A stretch of 12,818 bases of DNA from Gammaproteobacteria bacterium (GCA_003645255.1 QNES01000128.1:1-12818), one strand, 5' to 3'; numbered from the stretch's first letter, positions 1 through 12,564 are shown. A program made the numbers and translations. Notes: a model not told the origin generated them from the letters alone.

Positions 1-406
1 CTTCTGGGATTTTGCCACCGCCGGCAAAAAACTCGCTAACTTGCACCTCAACTATGAACAGCAACCAGAATACCCCTTAAAATGGATGGCTCAACCTGAC
101 ATGCCCTTAAACTGGCGCGTCGACAAAATGAAACTCTCCCGCGACAAGCGACAAATCATTTACAACGACTCCCTCACCCTCGGCGGCATTCCACCTGAAG
201 CTTTTGAATACAAACTTGGTAATCGCTCCGCCCTTGATTGGGTTATTGATCAATATCGGATTAAAGTGGATAAACGGAGTGGCATTGTTAATGATCCGAA
301 TCGGTTGGATGATGAAGAATATATTGTGCGCTTAATTGCGAAAGTGGTTTTTGTGAGTTTGGAGACTGTGGGGATTGTGTTGAAATTATCGGATTTGACA
401 CTATAA
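1..406 (+). CDS. C-terminal end (partial; the ORF is open to the window start) of a Type ISP/IIG restriction-modification enzyme or N6-adenine DNA methyltransferase-endonuclease fusion
   Basis: The frame is open from position 2 with no upstream stop. The translated C-terminus is ...LSRDKRQIIYNDSLTLGGIPPEAFEYKLGNRSALDWVIDQYRIKVDKRSGIVNDPNR..DDEEYIVRLIAKVV.VSLETV. This matches the conserved extreme C-terminal motif of single-polypeptide Type IIG/ISP (LlaGI/MmeI-like) enzymes. The 5' portion of the gene lies outside the window. Confidence 0.7.
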   Translation, partial: FWDFATAGKKLANLHLNYEQQPEYPLKWMAQPDMPLNWRVDKMKLSRDKRQIIYNDSLTLGGIPPEAFEYKLGNRSALDWVIDQYRIKVDKRSGIVNDPNRLDDEEYIVRLIAKVVFVSLETVGIVLKLSDLTL

Positions 407-1432: not shown

Positions 1433-1714
1433 ATGAAAAGTTTTCATTTTGAATGGGATCAGAATAAAAATCGATCAAACCATGAGAAACATGCTGTATC
1501 ATTTGAGGAAGCTCTAACCGTTTTTTACGATGAAAATGCTGTTGAATATTATGACGATAATCATTCCTCAGAAGAAGAACGTTTTATTATGTTAGGAATC
1601 AGTTATCAACTGAGATTACTCGTGGTATGCTATTGCATAAGGAACAGTGATGCCATTAGAATTATATCAGCCAGAAAAACGACTAAAAAGGAGGCAAAAG
1701 CCTATGGAAAATGA
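1433..1714 (+). CDS. brnT: BrnT toxin (DUF497 ribonuclease) of a BrnT/BrnA type II TA pair
   Basis: MKSFHFEWDQNKNRSNHEKHAVSFEEALTVFYDENAVEYYDDNHSSEEERFIMLGIS..LLVVCYCIRNSDAIRIISARKTTKKEAKAY matches the BrnT/DUF497 consensus (FEWD..K...N..KHGVSFEEA...F.D......D..HS..E.R......S....LL.VV...R.D.IRIISAR.A...E). The start was chosen at the ATG at 1433, not the upstream in-frame ATG at 1391. Confidence 0.8.
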   Translation: MKSFHFEWDQNKNRSNHEKHAVSFEEALTVFYDENAVEYYDDNHSSEEERFIMLGISYQLRLLVVCYCIRNSDAIRIISARKTTKKEAKAYGK

Positions 1715-1922
1715 ATATGACTTTGAAAAGATGACAAGGCGTAAAAACCCTTACGCGTCAAAACTAAAACAACAAATTACGATTAAAGTAGAAACTGATA
1801 TATTAGAATATTTTCAAGATCGATCAAAAGAGACCGGAATACCCTACCAACAACTCATCAACTTATATTTACGTGACTGTGTTGTTTCTAATCGTAAACC
1901 TGTTCTTACTTGGGTATCTTAA
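1704..1922 (+). CDS. brnA: BrnA antitoxin (DUF4415-like), partner of BrnT
   Basis: MENEYDFEKMTRRKNPYASKLKQQITIKVETDILEYFQDRSKETGIPYQQLINLYLRDC matches BrnA (KNPYA..LKKQ.TIRLD.DV..YFK.....GIPYQTLIN.YLRD). Its ATG overlaps the BrnT stop in ATGGAAAATGA, an 11-nt coding overlap. Confidence 0.8.
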   Translation: MENEYDFEKMTRRKNPYASKLKQQITIKVETDILEYFQDRSKETGIPYQQLINLYLRDCVVSNRKPVLTWVS

Positions 1923-2385: not shown

Positions 2386-2468
2386 AATTTCTGTACTTGA
2401 TGTTCAATTTTTTAAAAATACTATTTTTGCACAAATAGTATTTCTTTAAGCTTTTTAACTTTAAAAAC

Positions 2469-2498
2469 TTGAACATCAAGTTGTATATATGATATACT
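2469..2498 (+). promoter_or_regulatory. Sigma70-like promoter for the TMEM43-family gene, embedded in nested palindromes
   Basis: -35 TTGAAC (2469..2474), an 18-nt spacer, then -10 TATACT (2493..2498). The RBS GGAG at 2537..2540 lies 10 nt before the ATG at 2551. The palindromes GTATATatgATATAC and ACTTGtCAAGT overlap the spacer and -10 region. Confidence 0.35.
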
Positions 2499-2550
2499 TG
2501 TCAAGTTCAATTTTTGCAACAACAAGAAACACAGATGGAGAAATTTTTAG

Positions 2551-3297
2551 ATGTTTAATTCATATACCAGCGTAACCCATAAATCATGGGGTGATCGCAT
2601 TAAAGAAAGCTTTATACTTGCTGCATTGGGGCTCTGTTTATTTTTCGTCGCATTTCCAGTGCTGTTTTTGAACGAAGGTCGTTCTGTTTACCAGGTACAA
2701 AAATTGGAATATGGCAAAAGTATCGTGGTTCCAATTAATGCCGATAGTGTAGCAAAAGATAATGAGGGCAAACTGGTTCATACAAGTGGTGAGGCCACAA
2801 CGGATGAAACTTTGACAGATGAGGTGCTTGGGGTTAAAGCTGCCGAAACTATCAAGTTACAGCGCGTGGTAGAAATGTACCAGTGGCAGGAACATGAATC
2901 CTCAGTGACTGAAGAACACTATGGAGGTGATGAAACAACGACAACGACCTATTCCTATTCAGAAGAATGGTCAGATGATCCCATTGACTCCAGCAGTTTT
3001 GACGAGTCCAACGAACATCGCAATCCTGATATGCCAATTCACGGAAAAGAAATTAAGGCTCAACAGGTGACACTGGGTCAGTTTTCCCTATCGGAATACT
3101 TTATTGGGCATATGGACGATTATCAACCTCTGCAAATGCCAGATGAAGAACAGACGCAGGTGTTGGAAAAACTCAGTGCCTTAATGGAAGGTAAAAAAAA
3201 CAAACTTACGGTGACTATTATTACGTCAGTGAAAACCCTGCTGCTCCTCAAATCGGTGATCTACGGATACGATTTAAAGTTGTCCTGCCTGCTATAA
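2551..3297 (+). CDS. TMEM43/DUF1625-family membrane protein, N-terminal part, terminated early by a frameshift in an A8 tract
   Basis: SWGDRIKESFILAALGLCLFFVAFPVLFLNEGRSV has the N-terminal TM segment plus the NEGR motif, and VVEMYQWQEHE follows. Both are hallmarks of the TMEM43/DUF1625 family. The reading frame changes at AAAAAAAA 3193..3200, and the true protein continues in frame 0. Confidence 0.6.
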   Translation: MFNSYTSVTHKSWGDRIKESFILAALGLCLFFVAFPVLFLNEGRSVYQVQKLEYGKSIVVPINADSVAKDNEGKLVHTSGEATTDETLTDEVLGVKAAETIKLQRVVEMYQWQEHESSVTEEHYGGDETTTTTYSYSEEWSDDPIDSSSFDESNEHRNPDMPIHGKEIKAQQVTLGQFSLSEYFIGHMDDYQPLQMPDEEQTQVLEKLSALMEGKKNKLTVTIITSVKTLLLLKSVIYGYDLKLSCLL

Positions 3298-3329
3298 TAT
3301 CTGTTGTTGCCAAACAAGCCGGTACTAGC

Positions 3330-4208
3330 TTGGATACCTACACAACTGAACGGGATTTTAGCCTTAAATTTTATGGTTTTTCAATCGTTGACAATAACAT
3401 TCAACTTTTTGAATATGGCAATGTGACAGCCAATAGCATGTTTAAACACGCCAAACAGGCTAATGCACTCATGACCTGGATTTTTCGCCTTATTGGCCTT
3501 ATTATGATGTTTGTTGGCTTACGTATGATATTCGGTGTACTGGAAAAACTTGCAGCGGTCGTACCGTTTTTTGGCAAGATTATTGGATTCTTCAGTTCTT
3601 TGATAGCTTTTGTCATAGCTGCTGTACTTTCCTTAATCACCATTGCAATTGCTTGGTTATTTTTCCGCCCATTGTTAAGTGTCATACTTTTCATGATTGC
3701 AGGTGGACTTTTGTATTTATTAAAATATTTGCGTAAACAACCACAACAAGAGCCAATGATGGTTCCTGGAATGGGAGTACCTCAACCGATGCTAATCCCT
3801 CAGCAAGGTGTTCCACAAGCAATGGTTATGCCTCAAGGCACTCAACCAATGCCTCAAGGCGCTCAAGTTGTCATGGCTCAACCAATGCCTCAAGGCGCTC
3901 AAGTCGTCATGGCTCAACCAATGCCTCAAGGCGCTCAAGTTGTCATGGCTCAACCAATGCCTCAAGGCGCTCAAGTTGTCATGGCTCAACCAATGCCTCA
4001 AGGTGCTCAAGTCGTCATGGCTCAACCAATGCCTCAAGGCGCTCAACCCGTCATGGTTCAACCAATGGTAATGCCTCAAGCCGTTCAACAAACAGGCGTT
4101 CCCCAAAACGTCAATTCGGTCCAACAGTATGGGGTGACAACAGCCGTTACACATCCACAAACTCCACCAATGCTGGTTCCTGAGATGGTAATCCCCCCAA
4201 AGTCATAA
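3330..4208 (+). CDS. TMEM43/DUF1625-family membrane protein, C-terminal part (3 TM helices plus a Pro/Gln/Met-rich tandem-repeat tail)
   Basis: Frame 0 is open from 3195 as KKQTYGDYYYVSENPAAPQIGDLRIRFKVVLPAIISVVAKQ..., so the ORF caller's TTG start at 3330 is an artefact. The three hydrophobic helices (WIFRLIGLIMMFVGL, VVPFFGKIIGFFSSLIAFVIAAVLSLITIAIAWLF, LLSVILFMIAGGLLYLL) match the TMEM43 C-terminal region. The tail carries 6x PMPQGAQVVMAQ. Confidence 0.6.
   Translation: MDTYTTERDFSLKFYGFSIVDNNIQLFEYGNVTANSMFKHAKQANALMTWIFRLIGLIMMFVGLRMIFGVLEKLAAVVPFFGKIIGFFSSLIAFVIAAVLSLITIAIAWLFFRPLLSVILFMIAGGLLYLLKYLRKQPQQEPMMVPGMGVPQPMLIPQQGVPQAMVMPQGTQPMPQGAQVVMAQPMPQGAQVVMAQPMPQGAQVVMAQPMPQGAQVVMAQPMPQGAQVVMAQPMPQGAQPVMVQPMVMPQAVQQTGVPQNVNSVQQYGVTTAVTHPQTPPMLVPEMVIPPKS
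3843..4075 (+). repeat. Tandem 36-bp direct repeat (about 6.5 copies) encoding PMPQGAQVVMAQ
   Basis: The unit caaccaatgcctcaaggcgctcaagttgtcatggct repeats near-perfectly, with only synonymous gtt/gtc and ggc/ggt changes. It creates spurious ORFs on both strands (3808..4071+, 3792..4160-). Confidence 0.9.
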
Positions 4209-4247: not shown

Positions 4248-4275
4248 GGTGGGCAAAGTGTTTTTATTGCCCACC
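4248..4275 (+). terminator. GC-rich hairpin downstream of the TMEM43 gene (putative terminator)
   Basis: GGTGGGCAA-agtgttttta-TTGCCCACC has a 9-bp stem and sits 40 nt after the stop at 4206..4208. The T-run lies in the loop, not 3' of the stem, so the assignment is tentative. Confidence 0.35.
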
Positions 4276-4345
4276 GACAGTTAAAAAAGTCCAAAATTTA
4301 CCCGTTATTAGTATTGTTAATTGGGAGTGATAAAAAATACAGAAT

Positions 4346-5470
4346 ATGATGCAAAATGATGAATTAATGGAAATCGAAAAAGAAGAAGTTGGAGAGTTTG
4401 ATGTTGCTTCAGAAGATACCGATTCTCCCTTTAAACCTAAAGATATTGATATTGCTATCGAACAAAATAGTTTGTCAACGATTATTGGCATGATTGAAGA
4501 TGATGCCATTGATATGAATACCGAATTTCAAAGGAGTGGTAATTTATGGGCTGAATCAGTGATGAGTCGGCTTATCGAATCTATTTTATTGCGTTTACCT
4601 TTGCCAGTATTTTATTTTGACGCTTCTGATGATAATAGGTGGCTCATTGTAGATGGCTTACAACGGCTTTCGACATTTAAACGCTTTATGATTGATCACA
4701 ATTTAACGTTAGATGGTTTAGAGATACTGACTGATCTCAATGGTAAAACTTATGAACAATTAAGCCATCTTCTCAAACGAAAAATGGCACGTTATCAAGT
4801 AACCACTTATTTGATCAAACCGGGAACGCCAAAAAGAGTGAAATATGATATTTTTCGGCGAATCAATACGGGTGGGCTTATTTTAACCACACAAGAAATA
4901 CGTCATGTACTCAATCAAGGAAAATCAACCAGTTATCTAAACAAATTGGTTGAAGATAGTCGCTTTACCAAGATTATTCGTCTTAAAGACAATCGAATGC
5001 AAGCGCGTGAATTAATTGTGCGTTATTTGGCTTTTTCCATGACACCTTATCAAGAATATTATCAAGAATTTAAGGGAGCCAATTTTACTGTGTTTCTTGA
5101 TAAAGCAATGGAAAAATTAGCCCATTTGAGTCCTGCAAAACAAGAACAGTTTAAAAGTAATCTTTGGAAAGCATTGCGAGTTTGCCATGCATTATTTGGT
5201 GAACATATTTTTAGTAAATCCATTCTTGATGGTCATAAAAGGCAAAACGGTGCTTTATTTGAAGTATGGACTGTACTCATTGGACAATTGAGTCATAGCG
5301 AAAATAAACGTTTATTGTCATCAAAATCTCAGCTAATTAAGGAATTCAAATCATTGTTGAAAAATGATGATGATTTTTTTAAATCAGTCTCTCGCTCAAC
5401 TTTAAGCAAAAATCTGGTGATAAAAAGATTTGAAACCATTGAATCGCTGATTAAAAAATATACCTTATGA
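4346..5470 (+). CDS. DUF262-domain protein (ParB/sulfiredoxin-fold, GmrSD/DndB-like N-terminal domain) with no DUF1524/HNH C-terminal domain
   Basis: NTEFQRSGNLWAESVMSRLIESILLRLPLPVFYFDASDDNRWLIVDGLQRLSTFKRF matches the DUF262 core (FQR...W.....LIDSI..G.P....................DGQQRLTT). The DGQQR signature appears here as DGLQR at 4652..4666. The C-terminal half contains the RELIVRYLAF helical region. Its stop overlaps the next gene's start in ATGA. Confidence 0.8.
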   Translation: MMQNDELMEIEKEEVGEFDVASEDTDSPFKPKDIDIAIEQNSLSTIIGMIEDDAIDMNTEFQRSGNLWAESVMSRLIESILLRLPLPVFYFDASDDNRWLIVDGLQRLSTFKRFMIDHNLTLDGLEILTDLNGKTYEQLSHLLKRKMARYQVTTYLIKPGTPKRVKYDIFRRINTGGLILTTQEIRHVLNQGKSTSYLNKLVEDSRFTKIIRLKDNRMQARELIVRYLAFSMTPYQEYYQEFKGANFTVFLDKAMEKLAHLSPAKQEQFKSNLWKALRVCHALFGEHIFSKSILDGHKRQNGALFEVWTVLIGQLSHSENKRLLSSKSQLIKEFKSLLKNDDDFFKSVSRSTLSKNLVIKRFETIESLIKKYTL

Positions 5471-6585
5471 TCACGAATATTTACGTACAAAACTTCAAAG
5501 CTTTTCAGGAGGCTGAAATACCGCCCTGCCCACTCAATATTCTCACCGGTTTAAATGGCATGGGTAAATCGACGTTTCTGCAAAGCTTATTATTGCTCAG
5601 GCAATCTTATCGACAAAACACCTTATTAGATAAGGGCTTATTATTAAATGGTGAATATATTGAAATTGGTAAAGGCAAAGATGCTTATGCAATGTATGGC
5701 ACCACGGAAAAGCTCATTACCTTTGAAGTAGAATGGAACGAAGAAATAGAACTTCGTTGCGAATTTGAATCACGCGATGAATTAGATTTACTGCCCACCC
5801 ATCAACAACTCCAAATTTCCGATCAAAAAGTGTGGCAACAAGCCTTATTTCAGGATAAGTGGCAATATTTAAACACCGAAAGAGTGAGTCCTAAAACCTT
5901 TTTTCCGGCTTCAGCTTATCATATTGAACAAATCCATACTTTGGGCAATCACGGCGAATTTACCACGCATTTTATTGCGAAAAATCAACGCAAAGATATT
6001 CCCATAAAAGCCTTAGCGCATCCAAAAGCAAACTCTCTCGCTTTACTCGCCCAATTAGATGCGTGGTTGGGAGAAATTACGCCCAATATTCGCTTGACTT
6101 CTGTTTTATATAATGAATTTGAAATTGCCCGATTATCGTATAAGTTTGAAGTCGGTGAAGAATTTACCGAAGATATGAAACCCACCAACGTCGGGTTTGG
6201 CTTGACTTACGTCTTACCCGTCGTGACTGCCGTTTTATTTGCCAATCCTGGTGACTTACTCATTATTGAAAATCCAGAATCCCATTTACATCCGCAAGGG
6301 CAAGCTCGGTTAGGAAAATTGTTTGCGCAAGCGGCTGAACAGGGTGTACAACTGTTCATTGAAACCCATAGCGATCATGTTCTCAATGGCGTGCGTGTTG
6401 CCACAAAACAACAGTTAATTTCACCGGAAAATGTGGGTATTTTCTTTTTTGAACGCCATTTGGAAGCTAATGAACATCGAACTGAAATTATTCAGCCGAT
6501 TATAGATGAAAATGGTCGAATTAATCAATGGCCATCAGGCTTTTTTGATGAATGGGGTAATCAGTTAGATGAATTATTGAAATAA
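5467..6585 (+). CDS. RecF/ABC-like AAA ATPase (AAA_21-type) with a DUF3696 C-terminal region
   Basis: The N-terminus MITNIYVQNFKAFQEAEI..LNILTGLNGMGKSTFLQSLL is an SMC/RecF-like N-terminus with a Walker A motif (5548..5574). Walker B/D-loop reads DLLIIENPESHLHP (ENPE at 6268..6279). The C-terminus reads LFIETHSDHVLNGVRVA...NQWPSGFFDEW, consistent with the DUF3696 (THSDH..NG.R) signature. It overlaps the upstream gene by 4 nt (ATGA). Confidence 0.8.
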   Translation: MITNIYVQNFKAFQEAEIPPCPLNILTGLNGMGKSTFLQSLLLLRQSYRQNTLLDKGLLLNGEYIEIGKGKDAYAMYGTTEKLITFEVEWNEEIELRCEFESRDELDLLPTHQQLQISDQKVWQQALFQDKWQYLNTERVSPKTFFPASAYHIEQIHTLGNHGEFTTHFIAKNQRKDIPIKALAHPKANSLALLAQLDAWLGEITPNIRLTSVLYNEFEIARLSYKFEVGEEFTEDMKPTNVGFGLTYVLPVVTAVLFANPGDLLIIENPESHLHPQGQARLGKLFAQAAEQGVQLFIETHSDHVLNGVRVATKQQLISPENVGIFFFERHLEANEHRTEIIQPIIDENGRINQWPSGFFDEWGNQLDELLK

Positions 6586-6591
6586 CACGCT

Positions 6592-7557
6592 ATGGATATT
6601 TACATTTTTAATGAACTCTCAAGCCCTTTTGCAACGATAACTGAAGCTAAAGAACATTTAGTGACTTTTATAAATATTTGCTTTAGAGCACGGAAATTAG
6701 GTTTTAAAACACTTCATTTACATGAAAATATTGGAAAAAGTCTTTATGAATTGCCAATAGCTCCAAATTACACCGTGTCACAATGGTTGCAAGACTCAGA
6801 GGAAGATGTCAAAAATCAATTTCGAGAAATAATAACTAAAACACCTCTGATAACGAAAGATTATCCCATTGAAAAAGAACGTAATGAACTGTCAGAATTT
6901 AAAATAGAAATCAATCATAAAACGCAATTTGCTGATGGATTAGGGGCAGCTTACTTATTAGAAACACTTTGTGTCAGCTTTTTGTCCCATGATTTATGGA
7001 ATACTGATGAGATAAAAAACGTTAAACATTGGTGTCTGACAGAAGCCGGTAATGAGCTCACAGAAATAATTGCGGTTAAACATGCGTCAAAACCAGCACA
7101 TTTAGCGAAACATCAAGCTTGGTTTGAACAGAAAAAGCGGGAAAATCTCCAAAAAAGTCGAGATTTATGGGAACTTCGATACGAATTTTTTCCTCATTTA
7201 GTTTTATGTGGTGAAGTAGAAAAACAATTGACTCGCTTAGGTATTCAATCAAAATTTTTTGATCAAATCATTGAAAAGCTGAAACGGCTCAATGAATATG
7301 CCAAAAATTGGCAAAATGGTTCATACAGTGACACAAAAGCTAAACAATATGGGCTTGATGTCAGTGGCGAATCAGAAGGTACACTTAAAAAATATGGTAG
7401 ACAACGTAAATTCAGATTACCTAATAAAAAAAAGCAATTATTTGAAAAACATATCAAAACGGGCAATTTACGTTTTCATTTTTATCCTGATGAAGAAAGT
7501 CATACGATTTATGTAGGATATATTGGTTCTCATCTAAGTACAGTTAAATTTAAATAG
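6592..7557 (+). CDS. Hypothetical 321-aa protein, third gene of the DUF262-ATPase operon, with a C-terminus resembling the RelE/ParE fold
   Basis: It starts 6 nt after the ATPase stop with no separate RBS, implying translational coupling. No recognisable N-terminal domain. The C-terminal GNLRFHFYPDEESHTIYVGYIGSHLS resembles the RelE/ParE C-terminal consensus (GDYRIIY.IDDE...V.VLRIGHR). Confidence 0.7.
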   Translation: MDIYIFNELSSPFATITEAKEHLVTFINICFRARKLGFKTLHLHENIGKSLYELPIAPNYTVSQWLQDSEEDVKNQFREIITKTPLITKDYPIEKERNELSEFKIEINHKTQFADGLGAAYLLETLCVSFLSHDLWNTDEIKNVKHWCLTEAGNELTEIIAVKHASKPAHLAKHQAWFEQKKRENLQKSRDLWELRYEFFPHLVLCGEVEKQLTRLGIQSKFFDQIIEKLKRLNEYAKNWQNGSYSDTKAKQYGLDVSGESEGTLKKYGRQRKFRLPNKKKQLFEKHIKTGNLRFHFYPDEESHTIYVGYIGSHLSTVKFK

Positions 7558-7853: not shown

Positions 7854-8363
7854 TTAATCTAACTTTGCCAAAATTTCATCCACTGTATCAGGTGTTAGAT
7901 TTTCATGATATTTTCGCCCAATTTGCATCATTGGAGCCCCCCCACATGCGCCTAAACATTCTACTTCTTTCAAGGTGAATTTTTTATCAGACGTGGTTTC
8001 TCCCAATTTAATGTCCAATTTCTTTTCTAGGTGCTCAACAATTTCTTCAGAACCGCGTAGCATACAAGAAACATTGGTACACATACATAATTTATGTTGC
8101 CCTACCGGTTTAAGTTCATACATAGAATAAAATGTAGCCACTTCATAAACAGCAATAGGTGACATATCTAAATAATCGGCAACGGCATCCATTAACTCTG
8201 TTGTCAACCAACCACCGTTAGCTTCTTGGACAACCGTTAAAGCACCCATCACTGCTGACTGTTTTTGATCCGATGGATATTTAACGAGCCAACGGTCAAT
8301 TTCCGAACGAGTTTCATCCGATAAGATGGCAGAAGCATTGGGTTTAGACATACGTATTGACAT
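7854..8363 (-). CDS. NuoE/HoxE-family thioredoxin-like [2Fe-2S] ferredoxin subunit (24-kDa NADH-dehydrogenase/hydrogenase diaphorase subunit), encoded as a stand-alone gene
   Basis: GQHKLCMCTNVSCMLRGSEEIVEHLEKKL....EVECLGACGGAPMMQIG shows the four-Cys C-x4-C ... C-x3-C pattern and overall NuoE/NqoE/HoxE similarity. No nuoF/nuoD neighbours are present. Confidence 0.75.
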   Translation of the reverse strand: MSIRMSKPNASAILSDETRSEIDRWLVKYPSDQKQSAVMGALTVVQEANGGWLTTELMDAVADYLDMSPIAVYEVATFYSMYELKPVGQHKLCMCTNVSCMLRGSEEIVEHLEKKLDIKLGETTSDKKFTLKEVECLGACGGAPMMQIGRKYHENLTPDTVDEILAKLD

Positions 8364-8566: not shown

Positions 8567-8713
8567 GAAATACTATTTTGTAACAAATCAGGGCAACCAC
8601 AAGGGATTGCCCCTACGTTTGAATATTTTCTGAACTCGCCAACAAAAAAAATGTTGTAGGGGCAATCCTTTATGATTGCCCTGAGTAGCGATTTTTGAAA
8701 AAAATAGTATTTC
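8567..8713. mobile_element. Small palindromic MITE-like element: 13-bp terminal inverted repeats around two hairpin-forming inverted arms
   Basis: TIR-L GAAATACTATTTT (8567..8579) and TIR-R AAAATAGTATTTC (8701..8713). Internal arm A CAGGGCAAccacAAGGGATTGCCCCTAC (8589..8616) is the reverse complement, apart from a 4-nt centre, of arm B GTAGGGGCAATCCTTTATGATTGCCCTG (8656..8683). Each arm is itself a GGGCAA/TTGCCC hairpin. The same TIR pair occurs back-to-back at 2415..2444. Confidence 0.4.
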
Positions 8714-8889: not shown

Positions 8890-9174
8890 CTAATATCTTC
8901 CCCCACCTCCTCTGGGTTTGCGAGGACGTTCGTCCCTCGGACGAGCCTGATTCACCTTGAGATTTCGATCCTTCATAAGACTTGAATTGAGGACTTTGAT
9001 TGCTTCTTCCGCATCTGCTTGCCTTGTCATTTCAACAAAAGCAAACCCTTTTGATTGCCCTGAATATTTATCGGTTATTATGTTGACAGTAGTGACTTCG
9101 CCATATTCACCAAAAAGTTCTTGCAGTTCATCTTCAGTCACACTATAGGGCAAGTTACCCACATATATATTCAT
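8890..9174 (-). CDS. rbp: Glycine-rich RNA-binding protein with a single RRM domain (Rbp-type)
   Basis: RNP-2 is NIYVGNL and RNP-1 is KGFAFVEM. The tail is RPRDERPRKPRGGGGRY. The canonical bacterial or cyanobacterial Rbp is 90-100 aa. Confidence 0.9.
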   Translation of the reverse strand: MNIYVGNLPYSVTEDELQELFGEYGEVTTVNIITDKYSGQSKGFAFVEMTRQADAEEAIKVLNSSLMKDRNLKVNQARPRDERPRKPRGGGGRY

Positions 9175-9280: not shown

Positions 9281-10684
9281 TCACACCTTCTTTAAGGGAT
9301 CAGGTGAAACATGGTTTTGCAATCCTACCTCATGGGAACTTTCTTTCAGAAATTTTCCAAGTGTATCAGGTAACTCAACACCAGCCATTTTAGCAAATTC
9401 ATGCAAAGGAGGCAATACCTTAGTGATATTAGAAAGCCAATTAGCGGTTGTAGAACGACCGCTATCATTCCCCCCATCCATCACCAAAATCTTATCGAAC
9501 TGAATACCACTGATTGCCTGAGATTGAGCTTCAACAATTTTTGGCATTTGTTCAACGATCATTAACATCGCAGCTTTATCAGGCTCATTCCCCGCTGCGT
9601 TCACGATAGCCTCGAATCCCTTAGCTTTCTTTGCCAATTGCTCATAAATACCTTCTGCGTGACCCAACATTTCAGCCTTAATCGCTTCACCTTTACCTTG
9701 ACCATCTAATGCAAGCTGTGCTTTATTAGCTTCCGCTTCGATGATATATTTTGATTTAGCGATTTCCGCCGGCACGACAACATCTGCTTGCTGAGTCGCA
9801 CGCTCACGTTCTGCACGCGCTATTTCTGCCAGTCGTTCAGCCTTATAACCTTCTTCTTGAGCCGCAGCTACACTTACCGCTTCGGCGGCATCACCCCGAC
9901 GCTTAGCTTCAGCTTCAGCTTCACGACGCTTCGCATTGGAATTAGCCTCAACGACAGTGGCTTCATTTTCACCCGTCACCGCACGGGCATTAGCATTAGC
10001 TACATTGACTCGTTCTTCCTGTTTTGCATTAGATGCCCCGGTTTCACCATCACGGTGTTGCAAAGCGACTTGGACCTTTGCCCGATTGACTGCTTCAGCG
10101 GCAGCTTTTTCACCCAGGGCTTTCAAATAACCTGACTCATCTGTAATGTCAGCAATATTAACATTAATAAGACGCAATCCTATTTTTTTCAACTCCTCCT
10201 CAATATTTTCCATCACATTATGACTAAAGGTATCCCGATCAGCATTGATTTCTTCAATATCCATCGTTGCTATCGTGGCACGCAATTGTCCGAAAATAAT
10301 TTCTTGAGCCATTCCCTCAATGGCTGAAGGAGTCAAACCAAGCAAACGTATTGCTGCATTAGTCATGAGATCTTCAGTCGTACCAATGCCAAATGTAAAC
10401 TTCGAGGGTACATTGACTCGAATGTTTTGCTTTGAAAGCGCAGAGCGTAGAGGTACATCTGTCGTTATAGGTGTCAAATCCAAATAGGAATACTGCTGGA
10501 TAAGGGGCCAAACAAAAGTAGCACCCCCATGAATCGGCAACGCCGATCTACCAACACCCACTTTACCATACTTAACCAATATCCGATTAGAAGGACAAGT
10601 TTTATAGCGACGAATGGCTAACATAAAGGTTCCAAAAACCATCAAGCCAATGACAGTCACTATCATAATAATATAAATTGACAT
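9281..10684 (-). CDS. yqiK: Flotillin-like SPFH/band-7 protein (YqiK/FloT family)
   Basis: It has an N-terminal TM helix, an SPFH domain and a long Ala/Glu-rich coiled-coil (AEAEAKRRGDAAEAVSVAAAQEEGYKAERLAEIARAERERA) followed by a flotillin C-terminus. It lies immediately downstream of an NfeD-like gene. Confidence 0.85.
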   Translation of the reverse strand: MSIYIIMIVTVIGLMVFGTFMLAIRRYKTCPSNRILVKYGKVGVGRSALPIHGGATFVWPLIQQYSYLDLTPITTDVPLRSALSKQNIRVNVPSKFTFGIGTTEDLMTNAAIRLLGLTPSAIEGMAQEIIFGQLRATIATMDIEEINADRDTFSHNVMENIEEELKKIGLRLINVNIADITDESGYLKALGEKAAAEAVNRAKVQVALQHRDGETGASNAKQEERVNVANANARAVTGENEATVVEANSNAKRREAEAEAKRRGDAAEAVSVAAAQEEGYKAERLAEIARAERERATQQADVVVPAEIAKSKYIIEAEANKAQLALDGQGKGEAIKAEMLGHAEGIYEQLAKKAKGFEAIVNAAGNEPDKAAMLMIVEQMPKIVEAQSQAISGIQFDKILVMDGGNDSGRSTTANWLSNITKVLPPLHEFAKMAGVELPDTLGKFLKESSHEVGLQNHVSPDPLKKV

Positions 10685-10707
10685 ATTTTAATCCTATAGT
10701 TGAAATT

Positions 10708-11253
10708 TTAAATTTCCAATGGGTTCACAATCAATTGATTATTGGAAACGCGCACCACTTTCACTGTATGCCCTCTGGTAATTTTTTCACCTTCTGTAAT
10801 AGCTTCAAGCTCTTCAAGTCTGCCCTGAAAAGAAATATTCACTTTACCACAGCCACCGAATTTGCCTGGTATGGAAATGGAAACGATTGCTTCCTTTCCA
10901 ACCGTATTTTCTAAGTCAATATTGCCTGATTCATTTAAGGTAGCAAGCCCTTTAAGCAATAACAAATTTAAAGCTACCATAAACAACCCAATTAAAATTG
11001 CCCAAACAATAGAAATGCCCGCCTCAACGCAAGCCAGCCCTCCCCAGGAAAACCCCAGGAAAAAAACAATCGCATTTCTGAGGGTAAAAAACATGGAAGC
11101 ATCCCCACTTCCATCGTGATCCCCTCCATCTCCATCATCTGCTCCAATAAATAAGGCTACCACCATTTGAAGCATGAATAATAATGTAAAGGGAATAGCT
11201 AACCCCCAAAGAAGCTGCTGAACCCCGGTTAAACTAATCCACCATTCTTGCAT
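10708..11253 (-). CDS. yqiJ: NfeD-like membrane protein (YqiJ family), partner of flotillin
   Basis: Hydrophobic helices, an acidic Gly/Asp loop (GADDGDGGDHDGSGD) and a C-terminal OB-fold-like soluble domain, in the conserved yqiJ-yqiK order. The start is placed at the ATG (MQEWW...) with AGGG 9 nt upstream. The ORF track's GTG at 11280 would overlap the upstream gene. Confidence 0.7.
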   Translation of the reverse strand: MQEWWISLTGVQQLLWGLAIPFTLLFMLQMVVALFIGADDGDGGDHDGSGDASMFFTLRNAIVFFLGFSWGGLACVEAGISIVWAILIGLFMVALNLLLLKGLATLNESGNIDLENTVGKEAIVSISIPGKFGGCGKVNISFQGRLEELEAITEGEKITRGHTVKVVRVSNNQLIVNPLEI

Positions 11254-11263
11254 ATATTTTACC

Positions 11264-11746
11264 CTATAACGATACACCACTATTTTTTAAATCAACCTGA
11301 TTCAACAAAGCCTGATTTGATAAAAAATCTTCCAACTTCTTTGAAAAAACTTTTTCCAATACAGGTGGAATAACCTTTTCTAACTGTTTCTCAATCATAA
11401 GACTAAGTCGTTTTTCCAATTCATCTGATGAAATTTCCACATCCGGCTTAACTTCTATTGTAAAAGTTTCTTTTGCTTCCAAACTTTTTAAAGCTTCTGA
11501 TGCCACATTAGCTGCCTCCAATAATTGATTTTCATCTAAATCGCCTTCGTCACGCAATGTTGGATCTGCACAAAAATCTTCAACTGCCCAAAAAAGGGTA
11601 TTGAGTATTTTATATTCTGTTTCTGAAAAATCAGTGTTGTCATATTCAAATAATTTTAAATACTCAGCTTCAAATTGGAGCGCAGATAACTGTCCTTGCA
11701 TGAAGGAATTGATAAGTGTTCCATACGGATAAATTGTTGATTTCAT
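11264..11746 (-). CDS. Hypothetical protein, possibly a colicin/pyocin-type immunity-like protein
   Basis: MKSTIYPYGTLINSFMQGQLSALQFEAEYLKLFEYDNTDFSETEYKILNTLFWAVEDFCADPTLRDEGDLDENQLLEAANVASEALKSL resembles the colicin-immunity-like family pattern recalled from memory (EE.Y.IL..LF.AVD.F.PDP.LR.EGDIDEE.L). The start ATG overlaps the stop of the upstream gene (ATGA) at 11743..11746. Confidence 0.45.
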   Translation of the reverse strand: MKSTIYPYGTLINSFMQGQLSALQFEAEYLKLFEYDNTDFSETEYKILNTLFWAVEDFCADPTLRDEGDLDENQLLEAANVASEALKSLEAKETFTIEVKPDVEISSDELEKRLSLMIEKQLEKVIPPVLEKVFSKKLEDFLSNQALLNQVDLKNSGVSL

Positions 11747-12105
11747 GTTATATTCCCATCTGATAATAGATGCTTTTCCTGTTTCATGCTCAAATGCCAT
11801 GCCGATAAAAATTGATGGTTTTTGCATAAAACATTGAGTTTGGTTCCTGGATTAAAAAAATGTTTAATCGGTTGTCCTTTATAAGTGCCTTTTATCACTA
11901 CCGTGTTCACATCAATAATATGCTTTAACAATGCTTGTTTAAAAGCAATTAGATTTGACAAATTATAATGACCCTCTACACCAAAAACAAGAGCATGTTT
12001 AAATTTTTTCTGCAATTGTTTATCACTAAAATGGCACCGCCAAATCAGGGGCAATAACCCATTTTTTCTTATCCACTGTAAAGCATTTTGATAAATATTA
12101 TACAT
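11743..12105 (-). CDS. Hypothetical 120-aa protein translationally coupled to the immunity-like gene
   Basis: No recognisable domain. The ORF is clean, and its TGA stop sits inside the downstream gene's ATG. Confidence 0.4.
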   Translation of the reverse strand: MYNIYQNALQWIRKNGLLPLIWRCHFSDKQLQKKFKHALVFGVEGHYNLSNLIAFKQALLKHIIDVNTVVIKGTYKGQPIKHFFNPGTKLNVLCKNHQFLSAWHLSMKQEKHLLSDGNIT

Positions 12106-12321: not shown

Positions 12322-12564
12322 TTATTTTTTTGGACACTTGCTTTCCAAATACAAACTATCAGGGCAAAAATCTTGTCCATTTTGCCATTGAACACTGCCT
12401 AAAAAGGGTTTAACTGAGTTAAATAAACTTATTTCTTTTAATTCTCTAAATATACCTTTATCTAAATAAGGCTTAACATCAAATACTTTAACTTCTCCAT
12501 TGTTAAAAGTAAGGGTTATAGTGTAGTTTAAATTGGGTTTAACATGTTCAACTCTTGGATTCAT
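12322..12564 (-). CDS. DUF2442-family protein (small partner of DUF4160 in two-gene cassettes)
   Basis: VKPNLNYTITLTFNNGEVKVFDVKPYLDKGIFRELKEISLFNSVKPFLGSVQWQNGQDFCPDSLY fits DUF2442 (..L.v.F.dG..r.fD..P.L..G.F..L.d...F..V.v..g.v.W.ngiD..Pd.LY). Its start is 10 nt after the DUF4160-fragment stop. Confidence 0.7.
   Translation of the reverse strand: MNPRVEHVKPNLNYTITLTFNNGEVKVFDVKPYLDKGIFRELKEISLFNSVKPFLGSVQWQNGQDFCPDSLYLESKCPKK

What the first reader, a model, noticed from the sequence alone, without database searches (positions are those of the whole stretch)
3193..3200. TMEM43/DUF1625 membrane-protein gene is split by a frameshift inside an A8 homopolymer
The 2551..3297 ORF encodes the TMEM43 N-terminal half (NEGR and YQWQEHE motifs). 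Frame 0 is open from 3195 and encodes the expected continuation (GDYYYVSENPAAPQIGDLRIRF..., then the three C-terminal TM helices). The two halves join exactly at AAAAAAAA. One A more or less would restore a single ~550-aa protein. Possible explanations are a sequencing or assembly error at the homopolymer, slipped-strand phase variation of a membrane protein, or recent pseudogenisation.
Basis: seen in the sequence. Interest (0 to 1): 0.55.

Follow-up and report, generated by a model that had tools for sequence, protein, structure and literature searches.

The report
Naturally segregating frameshift in TMEM43-like gene
A membrane-protein gene of unknown function in an uncultured marine sulfur bacterium is broken by a real one-base deletion just after a run of eight A's, and intact and broken copies coexist in the wild population, which is an ordinary case of recent gene inactivation.

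Summary
The split is real. ORF 2551-3297 and the frame open from 3195 to 4208 are the two halves of one Pfam TMEM43 (PF07787) gene.

The lesion is not a length change in the A8 run. Fourteen near-identical (about 99.9%) contigs from other assemblies carry an intact 516-552 aa gene reading GGT-A8-CC-AAAC. The window and eight other independent contigs read GGT-A8-C-AAAC. The A run is eight bases in 23 of 24 contigs and in the 93% and 76% orthologues. One C of a CC pair is missing at position 3201.

The broken allele comes from several read sets and pipelines. It sits on at least two flanking SNP backgrounds and is linked to SNP 7036C (Fisher p = 0.003). It is therefore a genuine population variant, not an assembly error.

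No frame-restoring A9 allele was found, so homopolymer phase variation is not supported. A_AAA_AAC (3195-3201) is a canonical -1 slippery heptamer, and a -1 slip there would recreate the exact wild-type protein. However, there is no downstream structure, the orthologues are single ORFs, and unstimulated slippage is well below 1% in E. coli.

Best reading: a recent null or strongly hypomorphic allele of a weakly constrained gene. Interest is low.

The parts
2469..2498 (+). Sigma-70-like promoter candidate for the gene (TTGAAC, 18-nt spacer, TG-TATACT)
   Evidence: Consensus scan. This is a pattern match only. No promoter-like site on the + strand lies between the break and the second half.
2537..2540 (+). 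GGAG Shine-Dalgarno 10 nt before the ATG at 2551
   Evidence: Read directly from the sequence.
2551..3201 (+). Native N-terminal coding part, codons 1-217 (M1...N217). It holds TM helix 1 and the first two thirds of the beta-rich domain.
   Evidence: Translation. Pfam TMEM43 profile positions 1-98. Identical to residues 1-217 of the intact allele P0001. Topology.
3193..3200 (+). A8 run (AAA AAA AA of Lys-Lys-Asn). Its length does not differ between the broken and intact alleles.
   Evidence: The run is A8 in 23 of 24 near-identical contigs and in the 93% and 76% orthologues.
3195..3201 (+). A_AAA_AAC, a canonical -1 slippery heptamer in the ORF1 frame. A -1 slip here would read ...GKKN-QTYGDYYYV, identical to the intact protein.
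   Evidence: Frame arithmetic. Motif class from PMC4066793. No stimulatory element was found. Any function as a shift site is inferred, not shown.
3201..3201 (+). Lesion site: a single C where the intact alleles and orthologues have CC (1-nt deletion)
   Evidence: Pairwise and multiple comparisons.
3202..3297 (+). Out-of-frame tail of the truncated product (31 codons, KLTVTIITSVKTLLLLKSVIYGYDLKLSCLL) and its TAA stop at 3295-3297
   Evidence: Translation, compared with P0001.
3201..4208 (+). Native C-terminal coding part in the other frame (Q218...S552 plus stop). It holds the rest of the beta domain, three TM helices and a P/Q/M-rich tail. There is no start codon until a TTG at 3330, which has no SD.
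   Evidence: Translation. Pfam profile positions 107-250. ORF list. Identity to the intact alleles. Model.
3841..4067 (+). 36-bp tandem repeat, 6.3 copies, encoding (PMPQGAQVVMAQ)n in the disordered C-terminal tail. The assembled copy number differs between contigs (3.3, 4.3, 5.3 or 6.3).
   Evidence: TRF, repeat spans, protein lengths. Some of the variation may be short-read assembly collapse.

Best explanation
The window carries a genuine, naturally segregating 1-nt deletion allele of a single-copy TMEM43/DUF1625-family membrane-protein gene. The organism is an uncultured marine Beggiatoaceae-type gammaproteobacterium from Guaymas-type sediment metagenomes.

The ancestral sequence ...GGT AAA AAA AAC CAA ACT TAC... 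lost one C of the CC pair directly after the A8 run. Translation from the normal start then reads 217 native residues, 31 out-of-frame residues and a stop. The 248-aa product keeps TM helix 1 and part of the beta-rich domain. It lacks the conserved GDYYY...PQIGDLRI segment, the three C-terminal TM helices and the tail.

The allele is therefore a null or strong hypomorph, that is, a pseudogene in the making. It coexists in the same habitat with intact alleles that are otherwise about 99.9% identical.

Shown: the lesion, its reproducibility, its linkage to flanking SNPs, the intactness of the orthologues and the position of the break inside the domain.

Inferred: loss of function. Also inferred: only trace amounts of full-length protein could arise, by unprogrammed -1 ribosomal slippage on A_AAA_AAC or by RNA-polymerase insertion of an extra A in the A8 run.
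For: 1. Split of one domain. Pfam TMEM43 positions 1-98 and 107-250 fall in two frames.
2. Intact counterparts. P0001 (540 aa) is 100% identical over the joined halves. Cluster members of 516, 528, 540 and 552 aa are all intact.
3. Exact lesion. A8-CC versus A8-C is the only indel between the window and L001 outside the 36-bp repeat, alongside 7 SNPs in 12.4 kb.
4. Census. A8CC occurs in 14 contigs, A8C in 9 and A7C in 1.
5. Both alleles come from the same pipelines and from neighbouring sample accessions, for example ERZ27248454 broken and ERZ27248455 intact.
6. Linkage. All 5 broken contigs that reach position 7036 have C, whereas 10 of 12 intact contigs have T (Fisher p = 0.0034). Several other SNPs are private to broken contigs.
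7. Orthologues at 93%, 76% and 68% identity are single ORFs reading GKKNQTY or GKKTQTH.
8. The break after N217 lies inside a confidently modelled beta-rich domain (pLDDT above 90). It is upstream of invariant G236 and Q256 and of all three C-terminal helices.
9. The second half has no SD or start codon before the TTG at 3330, and no internal promoter.
10. The gene is weakly constrained, with dN/dS of 0.4-0.9 against the orthologues. A related copy is 5'-truncated next to a transposase gene. Both fit a dispensable gene.
Against: - No reads were available, so within-sample allele frequencies and platform-specific error could not be examined directly.
- Some contigs may be re-assemblies of overlapping read sets, so the number of truly independent observations is smaller than 9 and 14.
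- The broken allele shows no second lesion. Both halves are still open and identical to the intact allele. That is expected for a very recent event, but it is also what a still-used allele would show.
- The broken allele is common (about 40% of assemblies) and lies on at least two flanking haplotypes. That is somewhat surprising for a purely deleterious null, and it leaves room for neutrality, selection for loss, or leaky expression.
- A canonical slippery heptamer overlaps the lesion.
Confidence: 0.72

Rival explanations
1. Leaky or programmed recoding. The A8-C allele is still expressed as full-length protein. One route is -1 ribosomal frameshifting on A_AAA_AAC (3195-3201), which would give exactly the wild-type sequence GKKN-QTY. 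The other is RNA polymerase adding an A in the A8 run, which would give GKKK-QTY. The allele would then be a low-expression or two-product variant rather than a null.
For: - The heptamer is in the correct frame, and the -1 product equals the intact protein.
- A_AAA_AAC is a proven frameshift motif in one IS cluster with no established stimulator (PMC4066793).
- Transcriptional single-A insertions occur in A/T runs and rise exponentially with run length (PMC5574713).
- A frameshifted tssM1 is rescued in this way in Citrobacter (PMC4256274).
- Both halves are still undamaged, and the allele is frequent.
Against: - The 89 nt downstream fold no better than shuffles (z = +0.74; 153 of 200 shuffles fold at least as well).
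- The only SD-like element (AGGT, 3189-3192) abuts the run rather than lying about 10 nt upstream as in dnaX. The dnaX spacing is from my own knowledge.
- Without stimulators, heptamers in E. coli give only 2-10 times a 0.055% background (PMC4066793).
- The Citrobacter rescue uses A11, not A8.
- All orthologues and 14 sister alleles are plain single ORFs, and the 68% orthologue lacks the heptamer (A7CCC). The arrangement is therefore not conserved.
Confidence: 0.1
2. Slipped-strand phase variation: a contingency locus that switches ON and OFF reversibly through length changes of the homopolymer.
For: - A homopolymer lies at the break inside a membrane-protein gene.
- ON and OFF alleles coexist in one habitat on otherwise near-identical DNA.
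- All four combinations of break state and SNP 4631 occur. This could mean recurrent switching.
- One contig has A7.
Against: - A8 is invariant in 23 of 24 contigs and in two orthologues. ON and OFF differ by the number of C's (2 versus 1), and a dinucleotide is not slippage-prone.
- No A9-C revertant exists among the members of the 90% cluster.
- The single A7 variant does not restore the frame. It comes from an old-numbered SRA run whose platform I could not check.
- The OFF state is linked to SNP 7036C (p = 0.0034), as expected for one mutational origin followed by recombination.
- Mixed SNP combinations can also come from chimeric metagenome consensus sequences.
Confidence: 0.06
3. Sequencing or assembly artefact: a homopolymer-associated deletion call in the window's assembly, with the real genome intact.
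For: The site directly follows an A8 run, a context prone to indel errors on some platforms. The gene is intact in many near-identical contigs. One contig (L035) shows a further A7 miscall-like variant.
Against: - The exact 248-aa product is encoded on 8 further contigs, from 4 ENA assemblies, 1 JGI assembly and 3 Logan run assemblies.
- The same pipelines give A8-CC in sister samples.
- The deleted base is a C, not an A.
- The state is significantly linked to flanking SNPs and sits on distinct strain backgrounds. Random or context-driven error would not produce that pattern.
Confidence: 0.05
4. Functional gene fission: the two halves are now separate, independently translated proteins that work together.
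For: Gene callers annotate both pieces, 248 aa plus 256 or 292 aa. Both are still open. The ORF1 stop (3295-3297) lies 33 nt before the TTG at 3330, so re-initiation is conceivable.
Against: - No SD precedes TTG 3330, and there is no internal promoter.
- A protein starting at 3330 would lack native residues 218-260. That stretch contains the nearly invariant Y225, P230 and D237 and the invariant G236 and Q256.
- The break falls within one beta-rich domain.
- No orthologue is split.
Confidence: 0.03

Closest known systems
Pfam PF07787 TMEM43 / DUF1625 family (eukaryotic LUMA/TMEM43 and its uncharacterised bacterial homologues)
   Same: Both halves together cover the whole profile (positions 1-98 and 107-250 of 250). 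The intact allele has the family's topology: one N-terminal TM helix, a large beta-rich loop domain and three C-terminal TM helices. Hundreds of bacterial homologues of about 390 aa exist.
   Different: This lineage adds a 150-aa disordered P/Q/M-rich tail with 36-bp tandem repeats. The window's copy is frameshifted. No bacterial member has a known function. There are no PADLOC or NCBIfam hits, no solved fold match, and nothing turned up in the literature search.
Segregating frameshift (loss-of-function) alleles and nascent pseudogenes in natural bacterial populations
   Same: A single 1-nt deletion on an otherwise identical background, intact orthologues, no secondary lesions yet, coexistence with the functional allele, and weak long-term constraint on the gene.
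   Different: Nothing essential. The allele is unusually frequent among the assemblies sampled (9 of 24) and lies on at least two flanking haplotypes.
Homopolymer contingency loci (phase-variable surface genes of Haemophilus, Neisseria, Campylobacter; from my own knowledge)
   Same: A homopolymer next to the frame break in a membrane-protein gene. ON and OFF alleles occur in one population.
   Different: The tract length does not vary, and the change is in the adjacent CC pair. No frame-restoring tract variants were seen. The tract is mid-gene and only 8 nt of A, which is common in this AT-rich DNA.
-1 ribosomal frameshift sites of the A_AAA_AAN class (dnaX and IS911/IS3 with A_AAA_AAG; one IS cluster with A_AAA_AAC) and transcriptional-slippage rescue (Citrobacter rodentium tssM1, A11)
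   Same: An identical heptamer class in the right frame. The shift would yield the full-length protein.
   Different: No downstream hairpin or pseudoknot. The frameshift arrangement is not conserved in relatives. The A run is shorter than in documented rescue cases (A11). Expected unstimulated efficiency is well below 1%.

Membership tests
Pfam PF07787 TMEM43/DUF1625 | Match to the family HMM above the gathering score (23.3 bits) | tested here: met
   ORF1 scores 93.8 bits and the second frame 147.3 bits. Together they cover profile positions 1-98 and 107-250.
Pfam PF07787 TMEM43/DUF1625 | Four-TM topology: one N-terminal helix, a large loop domain and three C-terminal helices in one polypeptide | tested here: not met
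   The intact allele P0001 has this topology. The window's allele cannot make it as one polypeptide without a frameshift. The window therefore holds a disrupted member.
Homopolymer phase-variable (contingency) locus | Tract length varies among very close relatives, and that variation toggles the reading frame | tested here: not met
   A8 occurs in 23 of 24 near-identical contigs. The frame state is set by C versus CC. The single A7 contig stays out of frame.
Homopolymer phase-variable (contingency) locus | ON/OFF state independent of the strain background (recurrent switching) | tested here: inconclusive
   OFF is fully linked to 7036C (p = 0.0034), yet it occurs on two flanking haplotypes and with both 4631 alleles. 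Recombination or chimeric consensus sequences explain this equally well.
Programmed -1 ribosomal frameshift | Slippery X_XXY_YYZ heptamer in the upstream frame at the frame junction | tested here: met
   A_AAA_AAC lies at 3195-3201 with codons AAA|AAC in the ORF1 frame.
Programmed -1 ribosomal frameshift | Stimulatory element: a downstream hairpin or pseudoknot 5-9 nt away, or a properly spaced upstream SD | tested here: not met
   The fold of 3202-3290 is -12.3 kcal/mol, z = +0.74 against shuffles. The SD-like AGGT abuts the run.
Programmed -1 ribosomal frameshift | Two-frame arrangement conserved in orthologues | tested here: not met
   All orthologues and 14 sister alleles are single ORFs.
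Transcriptional-slippage rescue | Long A/T run (documented cases have 9-11 or more) giving heterogeneous mRNA lengths | not testable with these tools
   The run is 8 nt. No RNA data were available. The literature shows a length-dependent rate and an A11 example.
Sequencing/assembly artefact | Variant not reproducible across independent data sets and unlinked to true polymorphisms | tested here: not met
   The variant was reproduced in 8 other contigs from several sources and is linked to flanking SNPs.
Recent pseudogene / null allele | ORF disrupted relative to intact orthologues, with no independent expression signals for the distal part | tested here: met
   The first in-frame start (TTG 3330) has no SD.
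Recent pseudogene / null allele | Loss of protein function or expression | not testable with these tools
   This needs proteomics, a reporter assay or genetics. It is inferred from the loss of conserved residues and three TM helices.

The most novel reading that the evidence does not exclude
The A8-C allele is not dead. It would be a naturally maintained low-expression allele. Occasional -1 ribosomal slippage on A_AAA_AAC, or insertion of an A by RNA polymerase in the A8 run, would regenerate the exact or near-exact full-length protein alongside a truncated TM1-plus-half-domain product.

The intact and leaky alleles would then be kept as a balanced polymorphism. They might even coexist within single, highly polyploid giant sulfur-bacterium cells. 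That these bacteria are polyploid is my own knowledge and was not tested here.
Probability: 0.08. Interest if true: 0.45.

Novelty: new member of a known kind. Interest (0 to 1): 0.18.

Why it matters
It matters mostly for annotation. GenBank carries the 248-aa fragment as an ordinary hypothetical protein (RKZ73442.1). It should instead be flagged as a frameshifted allele of the 552-aa TMEM43-family gene (RKZ39130.1 / RKZ41632.1).

Biologically, the case shows that a bacterial TMEM43 homologue is dispensable, or at least polymorphic for presence, in a natural Beggiatoaceae population. That is a small clue about a family with no known bacterial function.

It is also a clean example of how cross-assembly comparison can separate a real indel next to a homopolymer from a sequencing error without access to reads. 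If the leaky-expression reading were true, it would add a natural 'saviour' frameshift case, but the evidence here does not favour that.

Tried and rejected
- **Pattern scans.** Exact and gapped patterns spanning the site found nothing in metagenome contigs or genome contigs. Those collections apparently do not hold these contigs. The census was made instead through exact-protein look-ups.
- **Genome relatives.** The search for related loci in genome contigs gave only distant relatives, at most 46% identity. These were of no use for the junction.
- **Literature search on accessions.** SRR058882, Ga0073581, 3300005264, JAPOGW and GCA_029935835 gave no papers. The platform of the A7 contig and the naming of the assemblies remain unchecked.
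- **Literature search on the family.** The TMEM43/DUF1625 search turned up nothing on bacterial function.
- **Downstream RNA structure** as a frameshift stimulator: rejected.
- **Rfam scan** of the window: no hits.
- **Foldseek of the AF2 model against the PDB:** no significant match (best E 6e-3, TM below 0.1).
- **PADLOC and NCBIfam on the intact protein:** no hits. The gene is therefore not a recognised part of the neighbouring defence system, and the 93% orthologue sits in a different gene neighbourhood.
- **TAACTGA repeats**, reported for Beggiatoaceae (from my own knowledge), gave 5 matches against 1.9 expected, and 7 of 200 shuffles did as well. This is too weak to use.
- **Repeat copy number as a biological signal:** set aside. 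Most k141 MEGAHIT contigs show the shortest form, so assembly collapse is plausible.

Full report
**1. The observation**

The window has AAAAAAAA at 3193-3200. ORF 2551-3297 (248 aa) begins with a good GGAG Shine-Dalgarno at 2537-2540 and contains LNEGR and MYQWQEHE. The frame of position 3195 has a TAA at 3192-3194. It is then open to 4208 and reads KKQTYGDYYYVSENPAAPQIGDLRIRF..., followed by three hydrophobic helices and a P/Q/M-rich tail.

Pfam TMEM43 (PF07787) matches ORF1 with profile positions 1-98 (E 1.4e-26). It matches the second frame with positions 107-250 (E 6.7e-43). This is one gene broken inside its domain, and chance cannot explain it.

**2. Where the lesion really is**

A search with the joined protein found P0001 (540 aa). 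It is 100% identical over the query and is encoded on NCBI contig JAPOGW010002353. That contig is collinear with the window. Over 12.4 kb it differs only by 7 SNPs, one 36-bp repeat unit and one single-base indel.

| Sequence | Reading at the site |
|---|---|
| Intact allele | GGT AAA AAA AAC CAA ACT TAC (A8-CC) |
| Window | GGT AAAAAAAA C AAACTTAC (A8-C) |

The A run has the same length in both. The missing base is one C of the CC pair, at window position 3201. The 93% orthologue (L010) and the 76% orthologue (L036) also read A8-CC, and the 68% orthologue (L037) reads A7-CCC, all in frame.

Rebuilding the variants shows the following:

| Variant | First open product |
|---|---|
| A8-CC | 552 aa |
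| A9-C | 552 aa |
| A6-C | 551 aa |
| A8-C (window) | 248 aa |
| A7-C | 220 aa |

So 'one A more' would repair the gene and 'one A less' would not. The A8 run is not unusual. The window has five A8/T8 runs, and here the run simply encodes Lys-Lys-Asn in AT-rich DNA.

**3. Artefact or real?**

The exact 248-aa product is encoded on eight further contigs. They come from four ENA MEGAHIT assemblies, one JGI metagenome and three Logan run assemblies. It also corresponds to GenBank RKZ73442.1, from a 'Gammaproteobacteria bacterium' MAG. All eight read A8-C.

The same pipelines, often on samples with neighbouring accession numbers, give intact A8-CC alleles in 14 contigs. These encode proteins of 516, 528, 540 or 552 aa, including GenBank RKZ39130.1 and RKZ41632.1. 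One contig (L035, Logan SRR058882) reads A7-C.

Apart from one Ser/Asn SNP at position 2747 in two intact contigs, the gene shows no difference other than the C indel and the repeat number. In the flanks there are 23 informative SNPs:

- All five broken contigs that reach position 7036 carry C, while 10 of 12 intact ones carry T (Fisher p = 0.0034).
- Alleles 2138C, 124C/151A/178C and 9131G/9142G/9368T occur only in broken contigs.
- The broken allele sits on at least two distinguishable flanking haplotypes: window/L003, and L002/L004/L005/L006.

A context-driven sequencing error would not be tied to strain SNPs. I therefore conclude that the deletion is a true genomic variant. It most likely arose once, on a 7036C background, and was then spread by recombination. 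Chimeric metagenome consensus sequences could also blur the haplotypes. No reads were available, and several contigs may share read sets, so the count of independent observations is an upper bound.

**4. What the gene is and what is lost**

An AlphaFold2 model of the intact allele was built from a 50-sequence alignment. It is confident for residues 1-390 (block pLDDT about 86-98). Its layout is as follows:

| Residues | Feature |
|---|---|
| 13-58 | Long N-terminal helix containing the TM segment |
| about 60-290 | Beta-rich domain |
| 294-335, 339-369, 374-395 | Three C-terminal helices |
| from about 400 | Disordered tail holding the (PMPQGAQVVMAQ)n repeats |

The break after N217 falls inside the beta-rich domain. 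It is upstream of invariant G236 and Q256, of the nearly invariant Y225, P230 and D237, and of all three C-terminal helices.

The second half has no start codon before a TTG at 3330, no SD and no internal promoter-like site. A protein started at 3330 would lack the conserved 218-260 stretch. The normal-frame product is thus a 248-aa stub, with 217 native and 31 foreign residues.

The function of bacterial TMEM43 homologues is unknown. There is no PADLOC or NCBIfam hit, no significant solved-structure fold match, and nothing turned up in the literature search. Long-term constraint on the gene is weak. dN/dS is 0.39 and 0.87 for the two halves against the 93% orthologue, and 0.47 and 0.51 against the 68% orthologue. 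A 76% relative is 5'-truncated next to a transposase gene. Both observations fit a dispensable gene.

**5. Could it still be expressed?**

The lesion overlaps A_AAA_AAC (3195-3201), a canonical -1 heptamer in the ORF1 frame. A -1 slip there would give GKKN-QTYGDYYY..., exactly the wild-type protein. An extra A inserted by RNA polymerase would give GKKK-QTY....

In favour: A_AAA_AAC is a proven shift motif in one IS cluster without a known stimulator (PMC4066793). Transcriptional A insertions rise exponentially with run length (PMC5574713).

Against:
- The 89 nt downstream fold no better than shuffled sequence (z = +0.74).
- The only SD-like element abuts the run.
- Unstimulated heptamers in E. 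coli give only 2-10 times a 0.055% background.
- The documented transcriptional rescue of tssM1 uses A11 (PMC4256274).
- The two-frame arrangement is absent from every orthologue and from 14 sister alleles.

I therefore regard any full-length product as trace-level and unprogrammed. I give about 10% to the alternative that it is biologically meaningful.

**6. Phase variation**

This rival fails its defining test. The tract length does not vary (A8 in 23 of 24 contigs). ON and OFF differ by C2 versus C1. No A9-C revertant is present among the members of the 90% protein cluster, and the single A7 variant remains out of frame. The occurrence of both break states with both alleles of SNP 4631 is the only hint of recurrence. 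Recombination or consensus chimerism explains it as well.

**7. Organism and context**

The NuoE protein encoded at 7854-8363(-) is 81-86% identical to those of Beggiatoa sp. PS, Candidatus Parabeggiatoa, Thiomargarita and Thioploca. The nearest named TMEM43 homologues are also from Beggiatoaceae. One sister contig is labelled DOMB18. The window is thus from an uncultured marine Beggiatoaceae-type bacterium. From memory of the RKZ/DRQ accession series, the source is probably Guaymas Basin sediment metagenomes.

The gene lies in an accessory region interrupting the nuo neighbourhood:

| Window position | Feature |
|---|---|
| 41-406 | End of a Type ISP restriction-modification gene |
| 543-1112 | Excalibur-domain protein |
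| 1433-1922 | BrnT/BrnA toxin-antitoxin pair |
| 2551-4208 | TMEM43-family gene |
| 4346-7557 | Complete NsnA/B/C candidate defence system |
| 7854-8363(-) | NuoE |
| 8890-9174(-) | RRM RNA-binding protein |
| 9281-11280(-) | Flotillin and NfeD |
| 11264-12105(-) | Colicin-D-like toxin and immunity pair |

The 93% orthologue sits in a different neighbourhood, next to ccmBC and a T2SS F gene. I therefore do not link the gene functionally to the defence genes.

**8. Verdict**

It is a 1-nt C deletion adjacent to an invariant A8 run. It is a genuine allele that segregates at appreciable frequency with the intact allele in a natural population. It is best explained as a recent null or strongly hypomorphic allele of a weakly constrained TMEM43-family gene. 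It is an ordinary kind of event, hence the low interest score. Its practical value is in correcting the annotation, and it gives a minor hint that the bacterial TMEM43 homologue is dispensable.

Noticed in passing
window 199-388 and 2175-2364; L026: A 190-nt direct repeat (87% identity) brackets the Excalibur plus BrnT/BrnA cassette. The first copy is the 3' end of the Type ISP restriction gene. Contig L026 aligns to the window only from 2175 onward and has a 962-aa gene ending 166 nt before the TMEM43 gene. The roughly 2-kb cassette therefore appears to be present or absent between population variants, bounded by the repeat.
   Followed up: partly
window 3841-4067: A 36-bp tandem repeat (6.3 copies, 95% matches) encodes PMPQGAQVVMAQ units in the disordered tail. 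The assembled copy number is 3.3, 4.3, 5.3 or 6.3 in different contigs, giving proteins of 516, 528, 540 or 552 aa. Most k141 MEGAHIT contigs show the shortest form, so part of this may be assembly collapse.
   Followed up: partly
window 4346-7557 (+): Three co-oriented genes, two of which overlap, match the PADLOC models NsnA (E 8e-118), NsnB (E 1e-116) and NsnC (E 2e-88). This is a complete candidate anti-phage system directly downstream of the TMEM43 gene. In Pfam terms the three proteins are GmrSD_N/DUF262, AAA_15/AAA_21 plus DUF3696, and a protein with no Pfam hit.
   Followed up: partly
L036 1-3324 (sample ERZ27250292): A 76%-identical homologue starts at the MYQWQE motif, so it lacks about 108 N-terminal codons. 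It lies 90 nt downstream of a DDE_Tnp_1 transposase gene. This is an apparently independent disruption of the same gene family by an IS element in a relative.
   Followed up: no
L035 (Logan SRR058882), equivalent to window 3193-3201: A third allele, A7-C, gives a 220-aa product ending GKKTNLR*. It is otherwise identical to the window over 1.6 kb. It could be a homopolymer undercall in an old run or a real second deletion. The platform was not checked.
   Followed up: partly
window 11264-12105 (-) and 12322-12564 (-): A colicin-D-like toxin gene (PF11429 in the sister contigs) overlaps a colicin-immunity-like gene (PF09204). A DUF2442 gene lies next to them, and in longer sister contigs an IS605 OrfB/TnpB gene follows. 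This looks like a small toxin-immunity and mobile-element patch beside the flotillin-NfeD pair.
   Followed up: no
window 1433-1922; L004 1593-2003: The BrnT toxin (93 aa) and BrnA antitoxin (72 aa) overlap by 11 nt. In contig L004 the two are called as one 136-aa fusion, where L004 differs by SNPs at window 1600 and 1606. Contigs L002, L004 and L006 carry an extra G after window 1941.
   Followed up: no
window 2395-2481: A near-perfectly centred 43-nt inverted repeat (74% complementary, 1 nt between the arms) overlaps the promoter-like site 2469-2498 upstream of the TMEM43 gene. It is a possible operator or a remnant of a small mobile element.
   Followed up: no
window 8588-8684: A 29-nt inverted repeat (90% complementary, 39-nt spacer) lies in the intergenic region between nuoE and the RRM-protein gene. 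A related copy of one arm lies at 9041-9066, which suggests a small dispersed repeat family.
   Followed up: no
L027 (JGI 3300005264, Ga0073581): This sister contig is collinear with the window but lacks many short stretches, for example window 4268-4344, 5236-5328 and 6878-6900. It has many fragmented gene calls, although its TMEM43 gene is intact (A8-CC, 552 aa). It looks like a low-quality or patchy assembly of the same organism.
   Followed up: partly
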